Shown: positions 1,438-44,542 of the stretch, in pieces
Layout: each line of letters starts with the position of its first letter
How positions within the stretch are numbered: position 1 is the stretch's first letter
Origin: Asterionella formosa
Taxonomy: Eukaryota
Assembly: GCA_002256025.1 (NCBI GenBank)
Contig: NKIB01014093.1
Span: forward strand, 1 to 47,805
Direction of reading: 5' to 3'
DNA: 47,805 bases
Notes under the pieces: generated by a model
Databases searched by the model: none
What the model was told of the DNA's origin: nothing
The model's input: only the letters and a program-made list of their open reading frames with translations
Translations under genes and position numbers: made by a program

Positions 1438-1907
1438 NNNNNNNNNNNNNNNNNNNNNNNNNNNNNNNNNNNNNNNNNNNNNNNNNNNNNNNNNNNNNNN
1501 NNNNNNNNNNNNNNNNNNNNNNNNNNNNNNNNNNNNNNNNNNNNNNNNNNNNNNNNNNNNNNNNNNNNNNNNNNNNNNNNNNNNNNNNNNNNNNNNNNNN
1601 NNNNNNNNNNNNNNNNNNNNNNNNNNNNNNNNNNNNNNNNNNNNNNNNNNNNNNNNNNNNNNNNNNNNNNNNNNNNNNNNNNNNNNNNNNNNNNNNNNNN
1701 NNNNNNNNNNNNNNNNNNNNNNNNNNNNNNNNNNNNNNNNNNNNNNNNNNNNNNNNNNNNNNNNNNNNNNNNNNNNNNNNNNNNNNNNNNNNNNNNNNNN
1801 NNNNNNNNNNNNNNNNNNNNNNNNNNNNNNNNNNNNNNNNNNNNNNNNNNNNNNNNNNNNNNNNNNNNNNNNNNNNNNNNNNNNNNNNNNNNNNNNNNNN
1901 NNNNNNN
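1438..1907. other. Assembly gap (N run)
   Basis: Run of n bases. Confidence 1.
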
Positions 1908-3975: not shown

Positions 3976-4105
3976 NNNNNNNNNNNNNNNNNNNNNNNNN
4001 NNNNNNNNNNNNNNNNNNNNNNNNNNNNNNNNNNNNNNNNNNNNNNNNNNNNNNNNNNNNNNNNNNNNNNNNNNNNNNNNNNNNNNNNNNNNNNNNNNNN
4101 NNNNN
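3976..4105. other. Assembly gap (130 N) flanked by identical 11-mers caaggcataga
   Basis: 3965-3975 is identical to 4106-4116. Confidence 0.95.
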
Positions 4106-4235: not shown

Positions 4236-6000
4236 TCAACCACGACTATAGCAGACACTTGATTGGCCGACGGTGGAATCATAAATACTTATGTCGATCT
4301 TGTCAATAAGACCAGACGCGTATTGTCTACACACCTTGATAACGTACTTTTTGCCGCTGAATTGATAGGTAAACTTGGAGTTGGAAGAATCAAGTTGTGC
4401 TTGGAGGAATGTGCCCTTGCTGTGTTTCTTGACAATAACAAGCTTGTTAGCACCCGTTTCGGTTTGAAGGTTGAACGATTTGGCTATGTTGTACTGCATG
4501 TAAAGGTTATGCAACTTGACAATAGCATACCCGCCACCATTCTCAGCGAATGCAGTGATAGTACCTTTCCAAGCCCCGGTTGTCGAAGGATTTATGGCAA
4601 TTCTTCGGCCAGTGTACCACCCAAGGGACCAATCTGTTGACATGTATAGATCTAGTTGGTCAACAAGGGGTGCGATTGACTGTAGAGTTCAGAGTAATTC
4701 ACAACCTTTACTTACGATTCTCAGCATTGAAGCATTTCTCTGGGAAATGTTGGGTAAATGTTCCAACGCCCATGTATCCAGAATTATCTCCGTCTGAATG
4801 ATTCAGCGTGCACATGAAGGATGAATGTGATGAGGTATATGCATCCATTGTGGTCAAAGACTTTGCACAATCTTCCTTTAAAAACTTACATTCCTCAGAA
4901 TATGTACTGCTATGAAGGAGCCCGAAGTTATGACCAAGTTCATGCGCAGTCAACGAAACCCGCTCACAAAGCTGGTCTGCATACCAAGAGATAGCACCAC
5001 CAACATACGCCGCACTGACAAAGCCATTAAAAGTTGCCTTTGGAAAACAGATCATAAGGTGGTCAATATCCCCTACTCTTCCTGTTCCAAATCTACCATA
5101 TTTGGCTTCAAGCAGGAAAGCGTTGGTTTGATGGTTGGAAATCACAGTCTTTGTCTACCACGAAATTTATGCAAACAGTTGTTCTTACCTTCTGCTATGG
5201 CGACGATTTTGTCTCGGGCTGTGTTAAGTGCATATGCATCTTTGNNNNNNNNNNNNNNNNNNNNNNNNNNNNNNNNNNNNNNNNNNNNNNNNNNNNNNNN
5301 NNNNNNNNNNNNNNNNNNNNNNNNNNNNNNNNNNNNNNNNNNNNNNNNNNNNNNNNNNNNNNNNNNNNNNNNNNNNNNNNNNNNNNNNNNNNNNNNNNNN
5401 NNNNNNNNNNNNNNNNNNNNNNNNNNNNNNNNNNNNNNNNNNNNNNNNNNNNNNNNNNNNNNNNNNNNNNNNNNNNNNNNNNNNNNNNNNNNNNNNNNNN
5501 NNNNNNNNNNNNNNNNNNNNNNNNNNNNNNNNNNNNNNNNNNNNNNNNNNNNNNNNNNNNNNNNNNNNNNNNNNNNNNNNNNNNNNNNNNNNNNNNNNNN
5601 NNNNNNNNNNNNNNNNNNNNNNNNNNNNNNNNNNNNNNNNNNNNNNNNNNNNNNNNNNNNNNNNNNNNNNNNNNNNNNNNNNNNNNNNNNNNNNNNNNNN
5701 NNNNNNNNNNNNNNNNNNNNNNNNNNNNNNNNNNNNNNNNNNNNNNNNNNNNNNNNNNNNNNNNNNNNNNNNNNNNNNNNNNNNNNNNNNNNNNNNNNNN
5801 NNNNNNNNNNNNNNNNNNNNNNNNNNNNNNNNNNNNNNNNNNNNNNNNNNNNNNNNNNNNNNNNNNNNNNNNNNNNNNNNNNNNNNNNNNNNNNNNNNNN
5901 NNNNNNNNNNAATGCCATCAACGCTCTCCAATCCTCGAATCCCACCGGCTGATACTGCCGCCAATAGGTATAATACAACAGCAATACTTAATTGACGCAT
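4236..6000 (-). CDS. Secreted zinc metalloprotease, peptidase M11 (gametolysin-like); multi-exon, interrupted by gap 5245-5910
   Basis: Signal peptide MRQLSIAVVLYLLAAVSA at 6000. GT-AG introns 5106-5188, 4794-4889 and 4634-4715 give HELGHNFGLLHS (metzincin HExxHxxGxxH), EEYGDNSGYMG (Met-turn) and CFNAENHWSLGWY, hallmarks of M11. Confidence 0.85.
5245..5910. other. Assembly gap (N run) inside the M11 gene
   Basis: Run of n bases. Confidence 1.
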
Positions 6001-38384: not shown

Positions 38385-40461
38385 TAAAAAGAAAAATTAT
38401 TAAAGCAAGGGAATACCTGGTGCCCTGGAATGCTTGACTCCAAACGAGTAGAAACAGGTACCACTCCTACCTTTTGTGAAAAATCTAGCTTGTGTAGGCA
38501 GAAGTAATGACTTGAGTTAAGAAGCAATTTATTCCAGGTACAGGTACTGTTAAATCATTACATCTCGTTCATATTCTCAGAATAAATTCAAATTCACCTC
38601 CTATTTCGAACTCAACATGCAATTATATAGAGCTTGTTTATGATAGAACCTGATATTAATTATTATTTTAGAGCTTGATACTTGAACACAGGAACACTCA
38701 CACTCACAACGCACTAAAGGAAAAACCCTTACTGATTAATAGGTTTGATAAAATGAAAATTAATTTATTCTGTAAGTGGTTTATTGAATTTTCAATATTC
38801 CATTCCCACGTACTTGAACAAATGTCTATGCAGCATTACCATGATCATCCAAAGTTGTAATAGCTAGGATTATCCAGTAATGACATTATTTTACCACCAA
38901 CTTCGTAATTGCAAGAACAATGAAGTACATTAGCTAGAATATATCAGTTGTTCATCAAGTTAATAATATAATAATGCATTTTAAATCCATTATCAAAAGA
39001 ATAGTATTCAAAATCATATCTGTGAAAACTTAGAACTTCTGTGGATACTCATTCTTTTGCTTTTCTACCTTATGTTCCTTTGTGTTTGAATTCTACATTA
39101 TTATACATAGAATCGATAAATGCTATCATGTACCAGAGAGTTAATTAGATTTTGATACTTATGAAACACTTGATATTGTAACAACATTCAATACTTGGTT
39201 GATAGTTGCATGATAGACCGTGTCATGTGAGCCATTTCGCTTTCTGGAAAAATTCATGATTTCCTTATGAAATTATGATCGCAAAACTCTCATAGATCTA
39301 CAAAACACTGTAGATAATGATAACACAGATGCATAGTGATGACTATAAGATCAATTGAAATGGATTTCATACATTCATTCTTTTGGTCGTGGTTGTTTTA
39401 TTGTTGGAAAAGTAGCTTAGAATGATGATTATAAATTAAAAAACACTAATTTGCTTGTACGCTTTTTACGCTGGAGATTGTACATGATCTTGGTTGTGGG
39501 TTTTGCAACTGATACTGGCAGCAGCAAACTTTTTTAAGTGAGCTGATATTCCCTTTGCCATATAGCTACCCTTTAGGTTGCTTAAGCTCTCTTCGCAAGG
39601 TTCTCATTGGTCCCTATCAAGAGTGAAAGAGTCCTCATCATGGGGATGTCGATCCAAAATAAAATACTAAGCAAGAAAAATGATGTGATGAGTCGTGAAG
39701 CCATATGTGCATAAATAATCGCGGTCATCTAGCTAGGGCAGTGTCAACAGAAGCAAGATGGAGTGGAAGGGGTGCGCCCTTTCTCGATAGTAAGTAAAGT
39801 TGGTGATGCCAGTGTTCCACTTGTTGTCCCTCTTGAGTTTGAGGTAGTGGCGTGTTTGCAGCTCATGATTGGTGAGGAGGCAAACTGAAAACTATGACAA
39901 CCATGGAAAGAACGAAGATCATAAGTGGGTCTGATAAGCTGCAAAAGTCTATTTTGGGTGCAAGAGTAATATAGAATGTGAGGGAAATATATTTGAATCA
40001 ACTCAAGAAGAAATTATTCAATCATAAAATAAGTAAAGTAAAAACTAAAATGTAAATACAGGTGGAGACAGAACCAGACAAGTCAATTGGGCATTGATGA
40101 TGCTTGATGTGGCAAGGACGAAAATGACAGGATGATGCTCACCATCTTATTTCTGGCTGTCTGGAAGCATGGCACAATGAGGAGATTAAGACAACTCGTC
40201 CAGTAAGAAAATGCAAGCTGCCAATGAATGGGATGTAAAATGATGATTACTCCATCTGTTGGCCTACAAGCAAACGTAGAGATCATTATCAACAGAGCAA
40301 CCTTGGGTATCAAGGTGCCAATACTGCCACCAAGTATTTTGGCAATTAAACCACCATTTCTACTCTTGAAAATAATTCATGCTCCACCAAAACGAAATAA
40401 ATAAATAATTCTACTACCACTTTGTCACTCATGTCCTGACAAAACACCAGAAATACCAGGT

Positions 40462-42426
40462 TTAAAGTTCAGTACTAAAGGTCTCCTTCATACCTTCGAC
40501 ACGTCCACCAGCATCTGCGTAGACATTATAAGACGCCTTTTCGGGAACATCCGACATGAGCTCTCTCAAAAGTTCTGCTTCCATCTCTGCTGCTTCGTTG
40601 CCCAATCCTTCTTCGCTCAGCCATCGCTCCGCATCTAAAGCAGCTGCGGCTCCTGATCCAGCGGACGTTATCGCTTGTCGGTAAATGGCATCTGAGACAT
40701 CACCAGCACAAAAGATGCCCGGCACACTCGTCCTGGTCGAGCCTGGCACGGTCTTGACATAACCAGGATGTTGGTCTTGAAATTCAACAACGCCTTCTAA
40801 AAACTTCGTGGTTGGTGTGTGGCCTATGGCCACAAAGACCGCATCTACATCCATGGTTGTCACTTCATTCGTCTGCACGTTTCGCAAAATGACACTCTTG
40901 ACTATCTTTGGGAGATTATCCAAATCCAAGTTTTCGCTGTTTTCAGTGGTAGGATCCTCCAGGACTTTTCCTACAATCTCTTGAACTACGGTTAGCCATT
41001 GAATGGAAATGTGGGGATGTTCCATTACTCGTTGCGCCAATACTTTGCTTGCCCGGAAAGACTCACGTCGATGAATGACAGTCACTTTTCTGGATGTTCT
41101 CGCCAATACCAAGGCATCTTCCATGGCCGCATCTCCACCACCCACAACAACAACATCCTTGTTGCGAAAGATGGCTCCATCACAGGTAGCACAGGAGGAC
41201 ACCCCATTCCCACGCAATTCATATTCCCCCGGAACTTGTAGCCAATTAGCCTCTGCGCCGGTTGCCACAATGATGCTGTGTGTTTCAATCATAGTACCAT
41301 TGCTCATCTTCACCTTGAGTGGTCTCTTGGAAGTATCCACACTTTCCACAGTACTGGCTTCAAAGACCGCTCCAAAGGTGGCGGCTTGGATGCGCATGGC
41401 AGCAATGACACCAGGACCAGTCATATTAGCCAAGCCCGGATAGTTCTCCACATCAACCCCCTTACCTTGCAGTTGTCCTCCCATGGGAGGAGCAATGACC
41501 ACGGGAGACAGTCCCGCACGTGCGGCATATATGGCAGCTGCCATACCAGCAGGTCCACCCCCAACAATTACGACCTTTTCGGGGAAGTCCCCCGGACCAT
41601 TGTAAGAATGCAAATCTTCATCGTGATCATCATCTTCTTGTTCCAGTTGTTGTTCGAGTTCAGCTTCGAGACGTAATTCCAATTCTTTCATTAGTTCTGC
41701 CTTGGTGGCAGTCGAGAGCGTGGGCGACTTCGTGGTTGCCTTTGTCTTGGTTGTTTTTGGTTTACTTTGTGTGGCGTCCTCCTCCTTTGGGATTGACTCT
41801 CCCGTAAAGCGCTTGCTCAATGGCGGAGCAGATCCATACTTCTTTTTGAGTCGTCTAGCCAATTGATTGGCGGCGGCTCCAACGCAATTGTCGGCTCCCT
41901 TGACCATATCCACGCACTTCTTATGAACGCCGTGGACAAAATCGACTTCCTTTTGGGTATCTACTTGCGCATAATAAGTAACAAGTGCCTCTGAACCCAA
42001 AACAACGTTGTCTGTCATGGCTTGATCAATGACAGCATGTGCCATTTGATTCAGTTGCTGCTCTCCTGCTCCACTGAATTGATTCCAAACTTTGCCGTGA
42101 AGGAAGAAAACAAAGGTCGGCAAGGATCGAATCTGATAGCGACTTGCCAATTCGTGCATGGTTGTCGTGTCGACTTTACAAAATACTGCCTTTTCCTTGG
42201 TTGACGCTGCCAATTTCTTGAAAATCGGAGCCATCATGCGGCAAGGACCGCATCCATCGCTGTAAAAGTCCACTACCACCGGAAGTCCTGTTTCTGTATT
42301 GTGTTTGGCGAGGAGGCGTTCGAATTCACTCGTCGATCGAATGTGACGAACATCGGGCCTGGCTATCACCTTCGTAAAAGTGAACAGTAGGAACCAGAGT
42401 AACGGGACAACTATTCTCGTCATCAT
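40462..42426 (-). CDS. Thioredoxin - NADPH thioredoxin reductase (low-Mr TrxB type) fusion with signal peptide and C-terminal STEL (654 aa)
   Basis: MMTRIVVPLLWFLLFTFTKVIA signal; Trx VVVDFYSDGCGPC..SLPTF; TrxR GGGPAG.AAAIYAARA, VENYPG, IVATGA, GVSSCATCDG, GGGDAAMEDA, IHRR, FVAIGH, AGDVSD..YRQAITSAGSG..AALDAERWL. Confidence 0.93.
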   Translation of the reverse strand: MMTRIVVPLLWFLLFTFTKVIARPDVRHIRSTSEFERLLAKHNTETGLPVVVDFYSDGCGPCRMMAPIFKKLAASTKEKAVFCKVDTTTMHELASRYQIRSLPTFVFFLHGKVWNQFSGAGEQQLNQMAHAVIDQAMTDNVVLGSEALVTYYAQVDTQKEVDFVHGVHKKCVDMVKGADNCVGAAANQLARRLKKKYGSAPPLSKRFTGESIPKEEDATQSKPKTTKTKATTKSPTLSTATKAELMKELELRLEAELEQQLEQEDDDHDEDLHSYNGPGDFPEKVVIVGGGPAGMAAAIYAARAGLSPVVIAPPMGGQLQGKGVDVENYPGLANMTGPGVIAAMRIQAATFGAVFEASTVESVDTSKRPLKVKMSNGTMIETHSIIVATGAEANWLQVPGEYELRGNGVSSCATCDGAIFRNKDVVVVGGGDAAMEDALVLARTSRKVTVIHRRESFRASKVLAQRVMEHPHISIQWLTVVQEIVGKVLEDPTTENSENLDLDNLPKIVKSVILRNVQTNEVTTMDVDAVFVAIGHTPTTKFLEGVVEFQDQHPGYVKTVPGSTRTSVPGIFCAGDVSDAIYRQAITSAGSGAAAALDAERWLSEEGLGNEAAEMEAELLRELMSDVPEKASYNVYADAGGRVEGMKETFSTEL

Positions 42427-42644
42427 GGTGGAATCGACTAGAGGTGTCGGTTTTTCTTCCTCTGGCTGAAATATGGCGAACAACAATGGCTGAGAAACAA
42501 TGCAATTGGACATGTACCGGTAAAATACTACGTCATATTTCTGGCTATTAGTATGTGTATGGACGGAACGCATAAAATATACTCGACTACGGTACACATA
42601 TTAGCAAGGCAAATCATTCGTTTGCATACATATGATAAATATTA

Positions 42645-42775
42645 AGTACCAGGGTACCAGGTACCCTGGTACCAGGTTGAACTGTACCGGTACCAGGGTA
42701 TAGTGTAAAGTATAGAGTGCTTGGTACATAGTAGGTACAGTACCAGGTAGACCAGGTACCAGTACCTACCAGGTT
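42645..42775. repeat. Cluster of GTACC(A/T)GGTAC / TACCGGTA palindromic units (representative of a motif family found in most 5' intergenic regions)
   Basis: gtaccagggtaccaggtaccctggtaccagg...gtaccggtaccagggta...gtaccaggtagaccaggtaccagtacctaccagg. Similar clusters at about 6555, 14730, 17075, 28360, 29840, 30260, 32850 and 36005. Confidence 0.85.
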
Positions 42776-43093
42776 ATGATAATGAAAAGTGGCAACGAGA
42801 AAGAATTCGATTTGCTTCCTTCGCCCACCTCGCTCAATAACAGATATCACTGATTCCGTCGATCAAACTTGATCCTATGTATCCTGCGATGGAATTCTTG
42901 AATTTGATTTTGACCTTAAAACCCAATTGAATTGGATTCCCTAAAAAACGTAGGAAATGGTCGTGAGAGTGTGCATAAACACCGTTTTACCAACGATTCA
43001 ATAAAATGCTAGCAAAAGCCAGTCGCAATGTGAACAACCAAAGGATACTACTGACAATGAACGTGCTGATATTTATATAGCAAGGCCTCAAAG

Positions 43094-44362
43094 TCATTCA
43101 ACTACTACACACTTAAGGCCATGAAAGAGTGGGTGACAAAGCGCTTCAGAGAAACTCATGCGAAGGCCGGGGTTCCTGACTATCAATTTGGAGCAGAAGT
43201 CGGCAAACTCAGAATCAACTGCCTCGGTTACGTTCAAATCTACAAACGCGCGGATAGTTTCAAAAGTGGCAAGGCGAGGCTTTGAAAATCCGTGCTGTTC
43301 CATAATCTGCCTTTTCATGTCGGAGGACAACTCAAAGAGACCACGCACCTCTAACAATTCCCACGTTAAGACACCTAAACTCCACCGGTCCACAAAGCGG
43401 GCATCGTAAACCCCTTCGCCGATGATCATTTCTGGTGGAACAAATTCGGGAGTTCCACATAAAGTGGCACGTTGGTAGTTTCCACCAGGAAGTAGAACAG
43501 CCCAACCAAAGTCGGCCAACTTGATTTTTTCGTTTGCAAATACCAAACAATTTTCACCTTTGATGTCGCGGTGAGCGATACCACGAGAAGCCAGATGTTC
43601 CAAAGCAACGGTGATTTGAAGCACGAAAGAAACCTGTTGGCTTCGAGAAATAGGTTGTTTGTGGCGGAAGTACTCCAAGTCGCCGAAGGGGGCGAACTCC
43701 AATGTTAGGTAAAAGTTCTTTTCGTCCTCCCAATGACCGTGCAAGCGGACAATGTGGTCGTGATCCAAGCTGAAAGAGACATGGTTCACGGTTCACAAGC
43801 AAGATAAGAAGGAGATGATTGTGTAAGTGAAGAAGCGGACTTTTGATTGCGTTTCCATATTGTGGATAGAATACAAGAACGCTGACCTTTTCTGGATTTG
43901 AATCTCTCTGTGAAGCAACTCCATTCGATAGTCATAGTCCTTCAGCATGCTTTCCTTACAGATGATTTTGAGCGCAACATTTGTTCCAGATACACGTTCT
44001 TGCATCTTGAATACGGCACCAAAAGTACCCTGTCCGATTAAATTGAGAGTTTCATAATCATGCGTGGTCCAGTCCGATCGAGCTTGTCCGTTCAAAAGTA
44101 CATTATGGAGGATGTAGTTGTCACTAAGGACGATGCTATTATCTCGTTCAATAGTAACAACGTTTGCGGCTTGCCAAGTCGTAGAATCGTCCAATAATGT
44201 ATTTCGCGGGGTTATGGCGGTAGAAGATGGGGAACACAATTTCTGCCGTTTAATTACATGCTTCTTGTTCTCAGAGTTCACGGGCAAATGACGGCGACGC
44301 TGACGAGCCAGCATGGCAGGGTTGGGCGGGAATTCATGGACTAAGCTTCGGAAGACATTCAT
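43094..44362 (-). CDS. Aurora-like Ser/Thr protein kinase (about 383 aa; intron 43770-43886)
   Basis: IGQGTFGAV, VALKII.K, REIQIQK|SLDHDHIVRL.G.WED..NFYL.LEFA..G, HRDIKGEN, KLADFGWAV, RATLCGTPEFVPPEMI. Confidence 0.85.
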
Positions 44363-44542
44363 GCTGCTTGCGATTACGTGATTTGAGAAGAAGAAAAAGT
44401 GCACGTTTGATTTATGTTAGAAAAAAAGAGATCTGATCTGAAGATCCGTGTTTCAGATATGACGGAAGGAGCTGAAAATTCAAAATCATGCCAAACATCA
44501 CTTTTAAGTCGAATGAAGCATCTTATCTAGTGTGTCGCAGTT

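What the first reader, a model, noticed from the sequence alone, without database searches (positions are those of the whole stretch)
40462..42426. Secretory-pathway thioredoxin-thioredoxin reductase fusion: candidate self-contained ER reductase
Seen: one ORF with a cleavable-looking signal peptide (..FTKVIA|RPD, no plastid-type Phe at +1), a Trx domain (GCGPC, 42241-42252, Gly replacing the usual Trp), a helical linker (YYAQVD..K...LARRLKKKYG plus an acidic coil), an intact low-Mr TrxR (CATC 41182-41193, NADPH motifs GGGD and HRR), and C-terminal STEL. Known: plant/cyanobacterial NTRC and mycobacterial fusions have the order TrxR-Trx and NTRC is plastidial; low-Mr TrxRs are normally cytosolic, mitochondrial or plastidial, and how the ER lumen obtains reducing power is unresolved in model eukaryotes. 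Inference: an inverted-order, ER-retained NADPH disulfide reductase.
Basis: partly seen in the sequence, partly recalled or inferred. Interest (0 to 1): 0.82.

Follow-up and report, generated by a model that had tools for sequence, protein, structure and literature searches.

The report
Secretory thioredoxin–thioredoxin reductase fusion, diatom
This diatom gene encodes a complete thioredoxin system in one signal-peptide-bearing protein, already named NTRC in another diatom and placed next to the plastid there, but its tail and its relatives point to the endoplasmic reticulum.

Summary
Window 40462-42426 (-) is one intron-less, transcribed ORF of 654 aa: signal peptide, thioredoxin (GCGPC), helical subdomain, acidic linker, intact low-Mr NADPH thioredoxin reductase (CATC, GGGDAA, HRRESFR), disordered tail ending STEL.

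It is not a new architecture. It is the ortholog of Phaeodactylum tricornutum "NTRC/sNTRC" (ID 56519, Phatr3_EG02276). That protein is described as an NTR with an N-terminal Trx domain. GFP fusion placed it in the "blob-like structure", read as the periplastidial compartment (PPC).

The ER idea still gains support that my literature searches did not find in print:
- 116 of 121 diatom-type sequences end in EL.
- The nearest non-diatom relatives (Bolidomonas HIEL; HMEL, KSEL, KADL, HAEL) carry canonical retrieval-type ends.
- The same signal peptide, RPxVR N-terminus and architecture occur in plastid-less choanoflagellates (KTEL, KADL, HTEL, HSEL) and labyrinthulomycetes. The N-terminus is therefore not a PPC-specific adaptation.
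- Against this, 45 of 73 non-diatom members lack any x[DE]L.

My reading: a lumenal NADPH-driven disulfide reductase of the ER system (about 0.5), PPC only (about 0.3). Localisation with a free C-terminus would decide.

The parts
40462..42426 (-). Complete intron-less coding sequence (654 codons plus TAA) of the Trx-linker-TrxR fusion, P0001
   Evidence: RNA contigs are colinear without joints.
42361..42426 (-). Signal peptide, residues 1-22 (MMTR / IVVPLLWFLLFTFT / KVIA|RP)
   Evidence: Read from the sequence. The same layout is in 79 of 121 homologs, with A/G/S at -1 and invariant R-P at +1/+2. SignalP3 and TargetP2 call a signal peptide with cleavage VHA|RP in the P. tricornutum ortholog (paper supplement).
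42013..42360 (-). Thioredoxin domain, residues 23-138. The fold starts 2 residues after the cleavage site.
   Evidence: Pfam PF00085. AF2 pLDDT 96. Closest fold is Trx h1 of Chlamydomonas: Z 21.7, rmsd 1.0 over 111 residues.
42241..42252 (-). Trx active site CGPC (C59-C62), preceded by Gly58 instead of Trp
   Evidence: Invariant C59, G60, P61, C62. The residue before CGPC is G in 69, S in 26, Y in 2, H in 2 and R in 1 of 100 relatives, never W.
41836..42012 (-). Helical subdomain, residues 139-197 (YYAQVD...KKC x9 C...LARRLKKKYG). No Pfam family. It holds the diatom-specific Cys pair C171/C181.
   Evidence: AF2 helices 145-155, 161-173 and 183-197 at pLDDT about 95. No Pfam hit at E<=0.01. The two cysteines co-occur: both present in 124, neither in 20, one in 2 of 146 fusions.
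41581..41835 (-). Flexible linker, residues 198-282: disordered Ser/Thr/Lys/Pro stretch, then an acidic helix 242-264
   Evidence: pLDDT <50 at 213-235, helix 242-264. Conserved PNLHLA..EL..ELE motif.
40609..41580 (-). Low-Mr NADPH thioredoxin reductase module, residues 283-606 (FAD GGGPAG 289-294)
41182..41193 (-). Redox-active CATC (C412-C415) of the reductase
   Evidence: CxxCDG is present in 108 of 108 relatives.
41053..41142 (-). NADPH-binding motifs GGGDAA (429-434) and HRRESFR (452-458)
   Evidence: GGGxxA in 108 of 108, HRR..R in 96 of 108. H452 and R453 are invariant in A1.
40465..40608 (-). C-terminal extension, residues 607-654: helix 611-625, then a disordered tail ending STEL (40465-40476)
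   Evidence: pLDDT <50 for 638-654. EL ends 116 of 121 sequences. The P. tricornutum ortholog ends ...GMKESVAAEL.
40064..42563 (-). Extent of the longest RNA contig over the gene. This is an approximate transcript, not mapped ends.
   Evidence: run X1 record 1. The other three contigs end at 42450-42477.
42511..42575 (-). Upstream in-frame ATGs (42513, 42573) and a 2-codon uORF (ATG 42536) in the possible 5' leader
   Evidence: Only X1's contig covers 42513.

Best explanation
The gene encodes a self-contained NADPH-dependent disulfide reductase that is made on ER-bound ribosomes.

Proposed steps:
1. A 22-residue signal peptide is removed.
2. The mature protein begins RPDVRHIRS, directly at strand 1 of a thioredoxin h-like domain.
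3. Electrons run NADPH -> FAD -> Cys412/Cys415 (CATC) of the reductase module -> Cys59/Cys62 (GCGPC) of the tethered thioredoxin -> client disulfides.
4. The roughly 150-residue linker lets the Trx reach the reductase of its own or of the partner subunit, because low-Mr TrxRs are dimers.

I think the working compartment is most likely the lumen of the ER system, including the chloroplast ER that surrounds the diatom plastid. The protein would be kept there by retrieval through its exposed C-terminal xxEL, a relaxed descendant of the [HK]x[ED]L ends of its nearest relatives. Likely clients would be PDI-family or ERdj5-like oxidoreductases, or proteins that must be reduced before ERAD/SELMA-type translocation. 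Some molecules may also pass on into the periplastidial compartment.

Shown: the sequence features, expression, fold, conservation, and orthology to P. tricornutum NTRC.
Inferred: signal-peptide cleavage, electron path, retrieval by xxEL, compartment and clients.
For: Architecture and intact catalytic motifs.

The transcript covers the signal peptide and has no intron.

Orthology to Phatr3_EG02276 ('NTRC', ID 56519) includes the same N-terminus (VHA|RPVVRNIRSTHEF) and the same tail (GMKESVAAEL).

Tail evidence:
- EL ends 116 of 121 sequences. The residues before it vary and the tail length varies.
- The tail is disordered in the model.
- On a FastTree of 108 fusions, the diatom clade (19 rows) is sister to Bolidomonas (HIEL) plus P0364 (HMEL). 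Next come KSEL, KADL and HAEL forms. In that clade 23 of 25 end [DE]L and 2 end EF.
- [KRH]x[DE]L occurs in 25 of 73 non-diatom signal-peptide forms. Composition predicts 0.0014.

The same signal peptide + [AG]|RPxVRN + GCGPC + TrxR protein occurs in plastid-less lineages:
- Choanoflagellates: Savillea parva KTEL, Acanthoeca spectabilis KADL, Didymoeca costata HTEL, sp. UC4 HSEL.
- Labyrinthulomycetes: Hondaea, Aplanochytrium.

The basic N-terminus is therefore a family trait and not a PPC transit-peptide adaptation.

Other relatives join the module to ER/secretory-type domains: ARMET_C at 34.2 bits against a cut-off of 23.5; a signal peptide + PSI repeats; a signal peptide + four Trx domains.

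The authors of ASAFind 2.0 warn that the BLS phenotype is ambiguous. They report BLS/ER conflicts and a similar pattern with cell-wall presequences (PMC12136025 main text).

P. tricornutum BiP ends DDEL, so the diatom receptor does not need a basic residue at -4.
Against: - The only experiment on an ortholog (GFP fusion, Weber et al. 2009, which I could not read) gave the blob-like structure, read as PPC. It did not give an ER pattern.
- ASAFind 2.0 scores that ortholog as PPC, though only just (0.494 against a cut-off of 0.49), and the protein may have been in the training set.
- STEL and xAEL lack the acidic -3 residue of KDEL/DDEL/DEEL. No call tests whether a diatom ERD2 binds them.
- 45 of 73 non-diatom signal-peptide members end in nothing like x[DE]L. 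These include all 18 rows of the cryptophyte/haptophyte clade and the named labyrinthulomycetes. The trait changes at least 11 times on the tree.
- No lumenal NADPH source is known for diatom ER. The one signal-peptide-bearing NADPH producer reported (6PGDH) is also filed under PPC.
- The tree is a FastTree with SH-like support only.
Confidence: 0.5

Rival explanations
1. Periplastidial thioredoxin system (the published reading). After signal-peptide cleavage, the basic N-terminus RPxVRxIRS acts as a transit-peptide-like signal without an aromatic +1 residue. SELMA carries the protein across the second plastid membrane. It then serves, with NADPH from PPC 6PGDH, as the reductase of the PPC (Trx h2, sPUB, the SELMA machinery). 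The conserved EL would have some other role or be a relic.
For: - GFP fusion of the P. tricornutum ortholog gave BLS (PMC12136025 supplement Table S6).
- It is cited as PPC-located in PMC3101018 and as 'putatively' PPC in PMC8211711.
- R at +1, with net positive charge over the first 11 mature residues.
- ASAFind 2.0 PPC score 0.494 against 0.49.
- 6PGDH and a Trx h are reported in the same compartment, and no PPC glutathione system was found.
- Cryptophyte and haptophyte members, from lineages that have a PPC, have lost x[DE]L: 0 of 18 rows.
Against: - The 'transit peptide' is strand 1 of the Trx fold. The fold starts at +3, leaving no separate targeting domain.
- The same N-terminal motif is present in choanoflagellates and labyrinthulomycetes, which have no plastid.
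- EL is kept in 116 of 121 diatom sequences and descends from canonical retrieval-type ends. PPC residence does not explain this.
- The BLS phenotype is called ambiguous by the field's own reference set.
- The BLS list holds other families that are ER-lumenal elsewhere: prolyl-4-hydroxylase, a DnaJ+PDI protein and pectin esterase (that these are ER families is my own knowledge).
- A C-terminal GFP or a presequence-only construct would hide or remove the EL. The construct type is not known to me, because Weber et al. 2009 is not held.
Confidence: 0.3
2. The protein is not retained at all. It travels on through the Golgi and acts in a post-ER compartment (vacuole, silica deposition vesicle, cell surface) or is secreted. 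The EL end would be incidental to sorting.
For: - Signal peptide with no canonical KDEL/DDEL.
- 45 of 73 non-diatom relatives have no x[DE]L.
- One relative carries extracellular-type PSI repeats.
- The ASAFind 2.0 text notes BLS-like patterns for cell-wall presequences and two BLS proteins found extracellularly.
Against: - An NADPH- and FAD-dependent enzyme has no cofactor supply outside the cell (established biochemistry).
- The strict conservation of EL (116 of 121) and its canonical forms in sister lineages argue for retrieval.
- No secretome evidence was seen.
Confidence: 0.1
3. Translation starts at an upstream in-frame ATG (42513 or 42573). The hydrophobic stretch would then be internal and act as a signal anchor, or not act at all, giving a membrane-tethered or cytosolic enzyme.
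For: - In-frame ATGs at 42513 and 42573 with no stop in between.
- One of four RNA contigs reaches 42563.
- The P. tricornutum entry carries the comment 'N-terminal extension possible'.
- More distant relatives have an N-terminal SAP-like region and a hydrophobic segment before the Trx.
Against: - Three of four RNA contigs end at 42450-42477, downstream of 42513 (contig ends are not mapped 5' ends).
- The upstream peptide is not conserved, whereas 79 homologs start 7-31 residues before RPxVR, most of them at 15-31, including complete transcriptome ORFs.
- A 2-codon uORF lies between the two ATGs.
Confidence: 0.05

Closest known systems
Phaeodactylum tricornutum 'NTRC' / 'sNTRC' (JGI protein ID 56519, Phatr3_EG02276.p1; Weber, Gruber & Kroth 2009; Moog et al. 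2011)
   Same: The order is the same: signal peptide, Trx, helical subdomain, acidic linker, NTR, and a tail ending xxEL. The cleavage-site motif is the same (A|RPxVRxIRS) and so is the tail (GMKES..EL). This is the ortholog.
   Different: It comes from another (freshwater) diatom. The active site is GCGPC rather than SCGPC. Position +3 is Asp instead of a hydrophobic residue (1 of 79). The end is STEL rather than AAEL. The published papers I could read do not mention the C-terminal EL or relatives outside algae with complex plastids.
Plant/cyanobacterial NTRC (NADPH thioredoxin reductase C)
   Same: One polypeptide joins a low-Mr NADPH TrxR to a thioredoxin. The TrxR module matches Chlamydomonas NTRC structures 7p9d/7p9e (E 8e-71; TM 0.88).
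   Different: - Domain order is reversed: Trx first.
- The linker is about 150 residues and holds a folded helical subdomain.
- Gly/Ser stands in place of the Trp before CGPC.
- It has a signal peptide, not a stromal targeting signal (no aromatic +1).
- It carries a C-terminal xxEL.
The name 'NTRC' used for the diatom protein is therefore misleading.
Bacterial AhpF (alkyl hydroperoxide reductase subunit F)
   Same: An N-terminal Trx-fold redox domain is followed by a TrxR-like flavoprotein, so the order is the same.
   Different: The AhpF model scores 228 bits against a cut-off of 502.9, while TRX_reduct scores 325.5. AhpF has a double Trx fold and reduces AhpC. The whole-chain superposition is poor (rmsd 19).
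Mammalian ER reductive pathway (cytosolic TrxR1 through an unknown membrane protein to ERdj5/PDIs; ERFAD/FOXRED2 as candidate lumenal flavoprotein)
   Same: The task is the same if the ER reading is right: feeding NADPH electrons to lumenal disulfide reductases. [quoted passage not shown]
   Different: Here both reductase and Trx would sit inside the lumen in one chain. ERFAD lacks the redox cysteines, whereas this protein has CATC and CGPC. No named animal, fungal or plant member appeared among the 120 listed rows of each of my three searches, which does not show absence.
MANF/ARMET C-terminal SAP-like CXXC domain (PF10208)
   Same: Some relatives of this family carry it after the TrxR: P0126 at 34.2 bits against a cut-off of 23.5, and P0129 and P0145 below the cut-off. 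MANF is an ER-lumenal/secreted protein ending RTDL (my own knowledge).
   Different: The window's protein has no ARMET_C domain.

Membership tests
Low-Mr NADPH thioredoxin reductase (TIGR01292, EC 1.8.1.9) | FAD-binding GxGxxG at the start of the module | tested here: met
   GGGPAG 289-294. Present in 106 of 108 relatives.
Low-Mr NADPH thioredoxin reductase (TIGR01292, EC 1.8.1.9) | Redox-active CxxC in the NADPH domain | tested here: met
   CATC 412-415, invariant.
Low-Mr NADPH thioredoxin reductase (TIGR01292, EC 1.8.1.9) | NADPH motifs GGGxxA and HRRxxxR | tested here: met
   GGGDAA 429-434 and HRRESFR 452-458.
Low-Mr NADPH thioredoxin reductase (TIGR01292, EC 1.8.1.9) | Score above the curated equivalog cut-off | tested here: not met
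   325.5 bits against 343.45. The shortfall goes with an acidic insert at about residues 488-506 (alignment). The fold match is TM 0.92. I still file it as a TrxR module on motifs and fold.
Low-Mr NADPH thioredoxin reductase (TIGR01292, EC 1.8.1.9) | NADPH-dependent reduction of thioredoxin/DTNB | not testable with these tools
   Needs an enzyme assay.
NTRC (plant/cyanobacterial) | NTR module N-terminal, Trx module C-terminal | tested here: not met
   Trx is at 31-128 and TrxR at 284-591.
NTRC (plant/cyanobacterial) | Plastid stroma targeting (in diatoms: signal peptide plus a transit peptide with F/W/Y/L at +1) | tested here: not met
   +1 is Arg in 79 of 79. ASAFind calls the ortholog 'Not plastid'.
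AhpF | Match to the AhpF model above its cut-off | tested here: not met
   228 bits against 502.9.
Diatom 'NTRC/sNTRC' orthologous group (P. tricornutum 56519) | Signal peptide, A|RPxVRxIRS, Trx-first order, tail ...KES..EL | tested here: met
   Compared with the printed Phatr3_EG02276 sequence. 56-81% identity to 120 diatom-type homologs.
Soluble ER residents retrieved by K/HDEL-type signals | Cleavable N-terminal signal peptide | tested here: met
   Sequence rule. SignalP3/TargetP2 results for the ortholog are in the paper's supplement. No predictor was run on the window's own protein.
Soluble ER residents retrieved by K/HDEL-type signals | C-terminal tetrapeptide fitting the classical pattern [KRHQSA][DENQ]EL (pattern recalled, from no call) or the diatom set KDEL/DDEL/DEEL | tested here: not met
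   STEL has Thr at -3. The diatom consensus is [GASR][ASGVT]EL. Sister-lineage and choanoflagellate members have [KRH]x[DE]L, a looser class known to work in animals (recalled).
Soluble ER residents retrieved by K/HDEL-type signals | Signal at a free, exposed C-terminus and conserved among orthologs | tested here: met
   pLDDT <50 for 638-654. EL ends 116 of 121.
Soluble ER residents retrieved by K/HDEL-type signals | Observed in the ER | not testable with these tools
   The one published localisation of an ortholog is BLS/PPC.
Periplastidial-compartment proteins of diatoms | Signal peptide followed by a transit-peptide-like stretch without an aromatic +1 | tested here: inconclusive
   +1 is Arg and the start is basic. 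However, the stretch is strand 1 of the Trx fold, and it is shared with plastid-less lineages. The ortholog's PPC score of 0.494 against 0.49 is borderline.
Periplastidial-compartment proteins of diatoms | BLS phenotype of a GFP fusion | not tested
   Reported for the ortholog. The construct is unknown to me. The reference paper calls BLS ambiguous.

The most novel reading that the evidence does not exclude
The signal-peptide-bearing Trx-linker-TrxR fusions form a family spread across eukaryotic supergroups: diatoms, bolidophytes, labyrinthulomycetes, haptophytes, cryptophytes and choanoflagellates. In the members that end in [KRH]x[DE]L or xxEL, the family would give the ER lumen its own NADPH-driven thioredoxin system. 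[quoted passage not shown] On this reading the diatom protein's PPC assignment is an artefact of constructs lacking the free C-terminus, or only half of a dual location.
Probability: 0.4. Interest if true: 0.85.

Novelty: new member of a known kind. Interest (0 to 1): 0.6.

Why it matters
How the oxidising ER obtains reducing power is an open question. It needs that power to correct wrong disulfides and to unfold ERAD clients. In mammals the electrons come from cytosolic TrxR1 through an unidentified membrane step, and no lumenal TrxR-like activity is known (PMC5751730).

A protein with NADPH site, flavin, reductase disulfide and thioredoxin in one chain, placed behind a signal peptide and carrying retrieval-type ends in many lineages, is a concrete and testable candidate for a direct lumenal route.

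For diatom biology it matters in a second way. The ortholog is one of the reference 'PPC' proteins used to train and test targeting predictors. If its C-terminus decides its location, that reference and the picture of a PPC thioredoxin system would need revision.

If the PPC reading stands, the finding is an ordinary ortholog of a described protein.

Tried and rejected
- Whole-genome searches of the window's own assembly: no genome is held. I could therefore not look for paralogous NTRs, ERD2, or signal-peptide-bearing NADPH producers in this organism.
- Weber et al. 2009 (doi 10.1093/mp/ssp010) is not held. The supplement of Moog et al. 2011 could not be read. The GFP construct (presequence or full length, tag position) therefore stays unknown to me.
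- Earlier scan notes by sequence, by words and by genome gave nothing on this protein.
- The ESM Atlas look-up returned only diatom clusters and bacterial TrxR-Trx clusters, and no structure search.
- Fold search for the helical subdomain: the list of 50 was filled by thioredoxins (model range 1-116), so the subdomain 118-180 was effectively not tested. I do not claim it is a new fold.
- The T. pseudonana ortholog: the gene model in the reference set is mis-built (no signal peptide) and is 'not_identified' in the organelle proteomics table. No information either way.
- Cys171/Cys181 as a structural disulfide, which would favour an oxidising compartment: the pair co-occurs (124 both, 20 neither, 2 one, of 146). 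But the pattern follows one clade, so it is a single event. I had no model coordinates to measure the distance. I kept it only as a lead.
- Neighbouring genes (COPI-associated, MFS transporter, CAP-Gly, AAA ATPase, GTP cyclohydrolase I, malate/lactate dehydrogenase, ATP12, kinase and others) show no functional link.
- Literature searches for an ER-located TrxR or for this fusion outside diatoms found no description. The library holds open-access papers and preprints only.
- Named animal, fungal or plant members: none among the 120 listed rows of each of three searches. This is not evidence of absence.
Full report
**What is there.** The minus strand of window 40462-42426 holds one open frame of 654 codons. 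Its parts are:
- A hydrophobic N-terminus: MMTR, a 14-residue core, then KVIA|RP.
- A thioredoxin domain: Pfam PF00085, residues 31-128, E 6e-23, with GCGPC at 58-62.
- A region without any Pfam family (139-282).
- A low-Mr thioredoxin reductase: PF07992, residues 284-591, E 1e-37. TIGR01292 scores 325.5 bits, 18 below its equivalog cut-off. The AhpF model scores only 228 against 502.9.

The best solved relatives are bacterial, fungal and plant TrxRs (4jnq, E 2e-82). FAD (GGGPAG), redox (CATC 412-415) and NADPH motifs (GGGDAA, HRRESFR) are all present.

**Structure.** An AlphaFold2 model built on 54 homologs has mean pLDDT 83.5.
- The TrxR part superposes on solved TrxRs at TM 0.92.
- The Trx fold starts two residues after the predicted cleavage site.
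- A second model of residues 23-205 (pLDDT 96.2) is closest to Trx h1 of Chlamydomonas (Z 21.7, rmsd 1.0 over 111). PDI a-domains score only about Z 15.
- Residues 141-197 form a confident three-helix subdomain.
- Residues 213-235 are disordered, and 242-264 form an acidic helix.
- The last 17 residues, ending STEL, are disordered.

**Expression and gene model.** RNA contigs from four runs of three studies (lake and freshwater metatranscriptomes and one poly(A) transcriptome) cover the gene colinearly, with no joint. The gene therefore has no intron. All four contigs run past the ATG at 42426, to 42450, 42456, 42477 and 42563. A transcript that starts downstream of the signal peptide is thus not what is seen.

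Contig ends are not mapped 5' ends. In-frame ATGs lie at 42513 and 42573, with a two-codon uORF at 42536. Only one contig covers 42513. Homologs, including complete transcriptome ORFs, start 7-31 residues before the RPxVR motif, most of them at 15-31, so I keep 42426 as the start.

**It is a known protein.** The 120 best homologs are diatom-type fusions at 56-100% identity.

The supplement of ASAFind 2.0 (PMC12136025; I read passages of the main text and searched its supplementary files) lists P. tricornutum protein 56519. It is named 'NTRC', located at 'BLS' by 'GFP fusion [63]' (Weber et al. 2009), with signal-peptide cleavage VHA|RPV.

The sequence printed there for Phatr3_EG02276.p1 begins MGRTMLVGWGALLSVSVNLHGVHA|RPVVRNIRSTHEF...DSCGPC and ends ...GMKESVAAEL. 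It is plainly the ortholog, tail included.

Other papers, of which I read passages only:
- Moog et al. [quoted passage not shown] They place it in the periplastidial compartment with Trx h2, sPUB and 6PGDH.

Weber et al. 2009 itself is not held, so I saw nothing of it. The Trx-first order and the signal peptide are therefore in print.

**The name NTRC does not fit.** Plant and cyanobacterial NTRC has the opposite domain order and a stromal location. This protein has Arg at +1 in 79 of 79 full-length homologs, and ASAFind calls the ortholog 'not plastid'. The residue before CGPC is G in 69, S in 26, Y in 2, H in 2 and R in 1 of 100 relatives. It is never the usual Trp.

**The C-terminus.** Of 121 sequences (the query plus 120), 116 end in EL, 2 in DL and 1 in EF. 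The remaining 2 look truncated. Position -3 is A, S, G, V or T. Position -4 is G, A, S, R or K. The tail before it varies in length.

This is not the KDEL/DDEL/DEEL set used to recognise diatom ER proteins (Kroth et al. 2008, PMC2173943). DDEL is used as the ER-retention tag in P. tricornutum (PMC3229587), and P. tricornutum BiP ends DDEL. On its own the diatom end is therefore suggestive but not canonical.

**What changed my reading.** I ran a search of one representative per 50%-identity cluster and a search seeded with the haptophyte member P0124. Both show that the family reaches far beyond diatoms. The same build recurs: a signal peptide, [AG]|RPxVRN[VI][KR]T, GCGPC, the helical subdomain, the PNLHLA motif and the TrxR. 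It occurs in:
- Guillardia theta and Cryptomonas curvata.
- Pavlovales sp. CCMP2436.
- Bolidomonas and Triparma.
- The labyrinthulomycetes Hondaea fermentalgiana and Aplanochytrium stocchinoi.
- Four choanoflagellates: Savillea parva, Acanthoeca spectabilis, Didymoeca costata and Choanoflagellata sp. UC4.

Labyrinthulomycetes and choanoflagellates have no plastid. This is established knowledge and was not tested here. The basic N-terminus therefore cannot have arisen as a PPC transit signal.

The choanoflagellate proteins end KTEL, KADL, HTEL and HSEL. Unnamed members of that clade end HTEL, HSEL, RTDL and RDEL. Other clades end KTEL, KSEL, HAEL, HGEL, HMEL, KQEL and HTDL.

**The tree.** I built a FastTree of 108 fusions (SH-like support only, several long branches flagged). 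I chose the rows myself: 15 diatom-type sequences out of the roughly 120 available, plus every other fusion of at least 560 residues.
- The diatom clade (19 rows) is sister to Bolidomonas HIEL plus HMEL (support 100).
- This group sits within a clade with KSEL, KADL and HAEL forms (support 97).
- In that clade 23 of 25 end [DE]L and 2 end EF.

The sister position of Bolidomonas agrees with the accepted sister relation of bolidophytes and diatoms. The diatom xxEL thus looks like a relaxed descendant of a canonical [HK]x[ED]L end. Since diatom BiP uses Asp at -4, a basic -4 residue may not be needed there (inference).

**Counts for and against.** Among 73 non-diatom signal-peptide rows, 25 end [KRH]x[DE]L, 3 end in another x[DE]L and 45 end in neither. 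The amino-acid composition of these proteins predicts 0.0014 and 0.0099, so the enrichment is very large.

It is not universal, though. All 18 rows of the cryptophyte/haptophyte clade and the named labyrinthulomycetes lack it, and the state changes at least 11 times on the tree. Many of those members end instead in short acidic tails with a conserved Cys (EECDE, ACEESA, EQGFCS...). I cannot explain these tails.

More distant relatives join the Trx-TrxR module to other parts:
- An ARMET_C domain: P0126, 34.2 bits against a cut-off of 23.5.
- A signal peptide, DUF6445 and PSI repeats (P0146).
- A signal peptide and four Trx domains, ending FEL (P0135).
- An N-terminal SAP-like stretch followed by a hydrophobic segment with acidic residues after it. 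By the positive-inside rule this would put the enzyme on the lumenal side (inference only).

**Weighing ER against PPC.**

For the PPC:
- One GFP experiment on the ortholog.
- A borderline predictor score (0.494 against 0.49) that may be circular.
- 6PGDH, as an NADPH source, filed in the same compartment.
- The loss of x[DE]L in cryptophytes and haptophytes.

For the ER system:
- The exposed and strictly kept EL, and its descent from canonical ends.
- The absence of any targeting stretch separate from the Trx fold.
- The plastid-less relatives.

The ASAFind 2.0 authors themselves write that BLS-like patterns arise with cell-wall presequences. [quoted passage not shown] The BLS list also holds a prolyl-4-hydroxylase, a DnaJ+PDI protein and a pectin esterase. 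Those families are lumenal or secreted elsewhere (my own knowledge).

A presequence-only or C-terminally tagged construct would remove or mask the EL. Whether that applies here I could not check.

I put the ER-system lumen at about 0.5, PPC only at about 0.3, onward secretion at about 0.1 and an alternative start at about 0.05.

**Mechanism.** The motifs and the fold show the parts. The electron path is inferred from the chemistry of low-Mr TrxRs and NTRC: NADPH to FAD, to CATC, to the tethered GCGPC, to clients. Clients are unknown.

In the ER reading they would be PDI-family reductases or substrates awaiting ERAD/SELMA-type export. FAD is available in the ER lumen, because Ero1 is a flavoprotein (established knowledge). 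A lumenal NADPH source in diatoms is not known and could not be searched for, because no genome of this organism is held.

**Literature on novelty.** My searches found neither a description of an ER-located thioredoxin reductase nor one of this fusion outside diatoms. The library is limited to open-access papers and preprints.

[quoted passage not shown] Poet et al. 2017 and Cao et al. 2019 I saw only as search listings.

**Verdict.** The locus is a new member of a described diatom protein family that is misnamed NTRC. It conflicts with the one published localisation, but it is backed by conservation and by canonical retrieval-type ends in sister and plastid-less lineages. A free-C-terminus localisation experiment would settle it.

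Noticed in passing
window 42640-42790: A low-complexity tract rich in GGTACC/GGTAC units lies between this gene and the upstream kinase gene. Short pieces of an unrelated, highly covered RNA contig match it (X1 record 2), so it is repeated elsewhere.
   Followed up: no
window 1438-1907, 3976-4105, 5245-5910: Three runs of N (470, 130 and 666 bases): assembly gaps. They explain the very low GC bins and the all-frame ORFs there.
   Followed up: yes
window 41430: All four RNA contigs read A where the window has C on the + strand. This is the first base of codon 333 on the minus strand (GCT to TCT, Ala333Ser), at a variable position just before the conserved N-x-T-G-P. It is probably a strain difference.
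   Followed up: partly
window 43094-44404 (-): Two adjacent ORFs (203 and 231 aa) each match part of the protein kinase domain: profile positions 1-56 and 54-263. This is probably one kinase gene interrupted by a short intron or a stop.
   Followed up: no
relatives P0126, P0129, P0145, P0142 (not in the window): Trx-TrxR fusions from unnamed protists carry a MANF-type ARMET_C/SAP-like CXXC domain. In P0126, P0129 and P0145 it follows the reductase. In P0142 it sits at the N-terminus, before a hydrophobic segment. Only P0126 is above the Pfam cut-off.
   Followed up: partly
relatives P0135 and P0146 (not in the window): P0135 (937 aa) has a signal peptide, four thioredoxin domains with CxxC, a TrxR, and ends FEL. 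P0146 (1308 aa) has a signal peptide, DUF6445, PSI repeats, a Trx and a TrxR. Both look like secretory-pathway proteins with a built-in reductase.
   Followed up: no
relatives P0334, P0336, P0348, P0357, P0125, P0127, P0304, P0296-P0303 (not in the window): Members without x[DE]L end in short tails with a conserved cysteine: labyrinthulomycete type ...EECDE / ...ACEESA, and cryptophyte type ...WLSEQG[FYH]CS.... Their role is unknown.
   Followed up: no
P0001 residues 171 and 181 (window 41884-41916): A Cys-x9-Cys pair bridges two helices of the linker subdomain. It is present in the diatom clade and absent elsewhere: both in 124, neither in 20, one in 2 of 146. It may be a disulfide staple. 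I could not measure the distance.
   Followed up: partly
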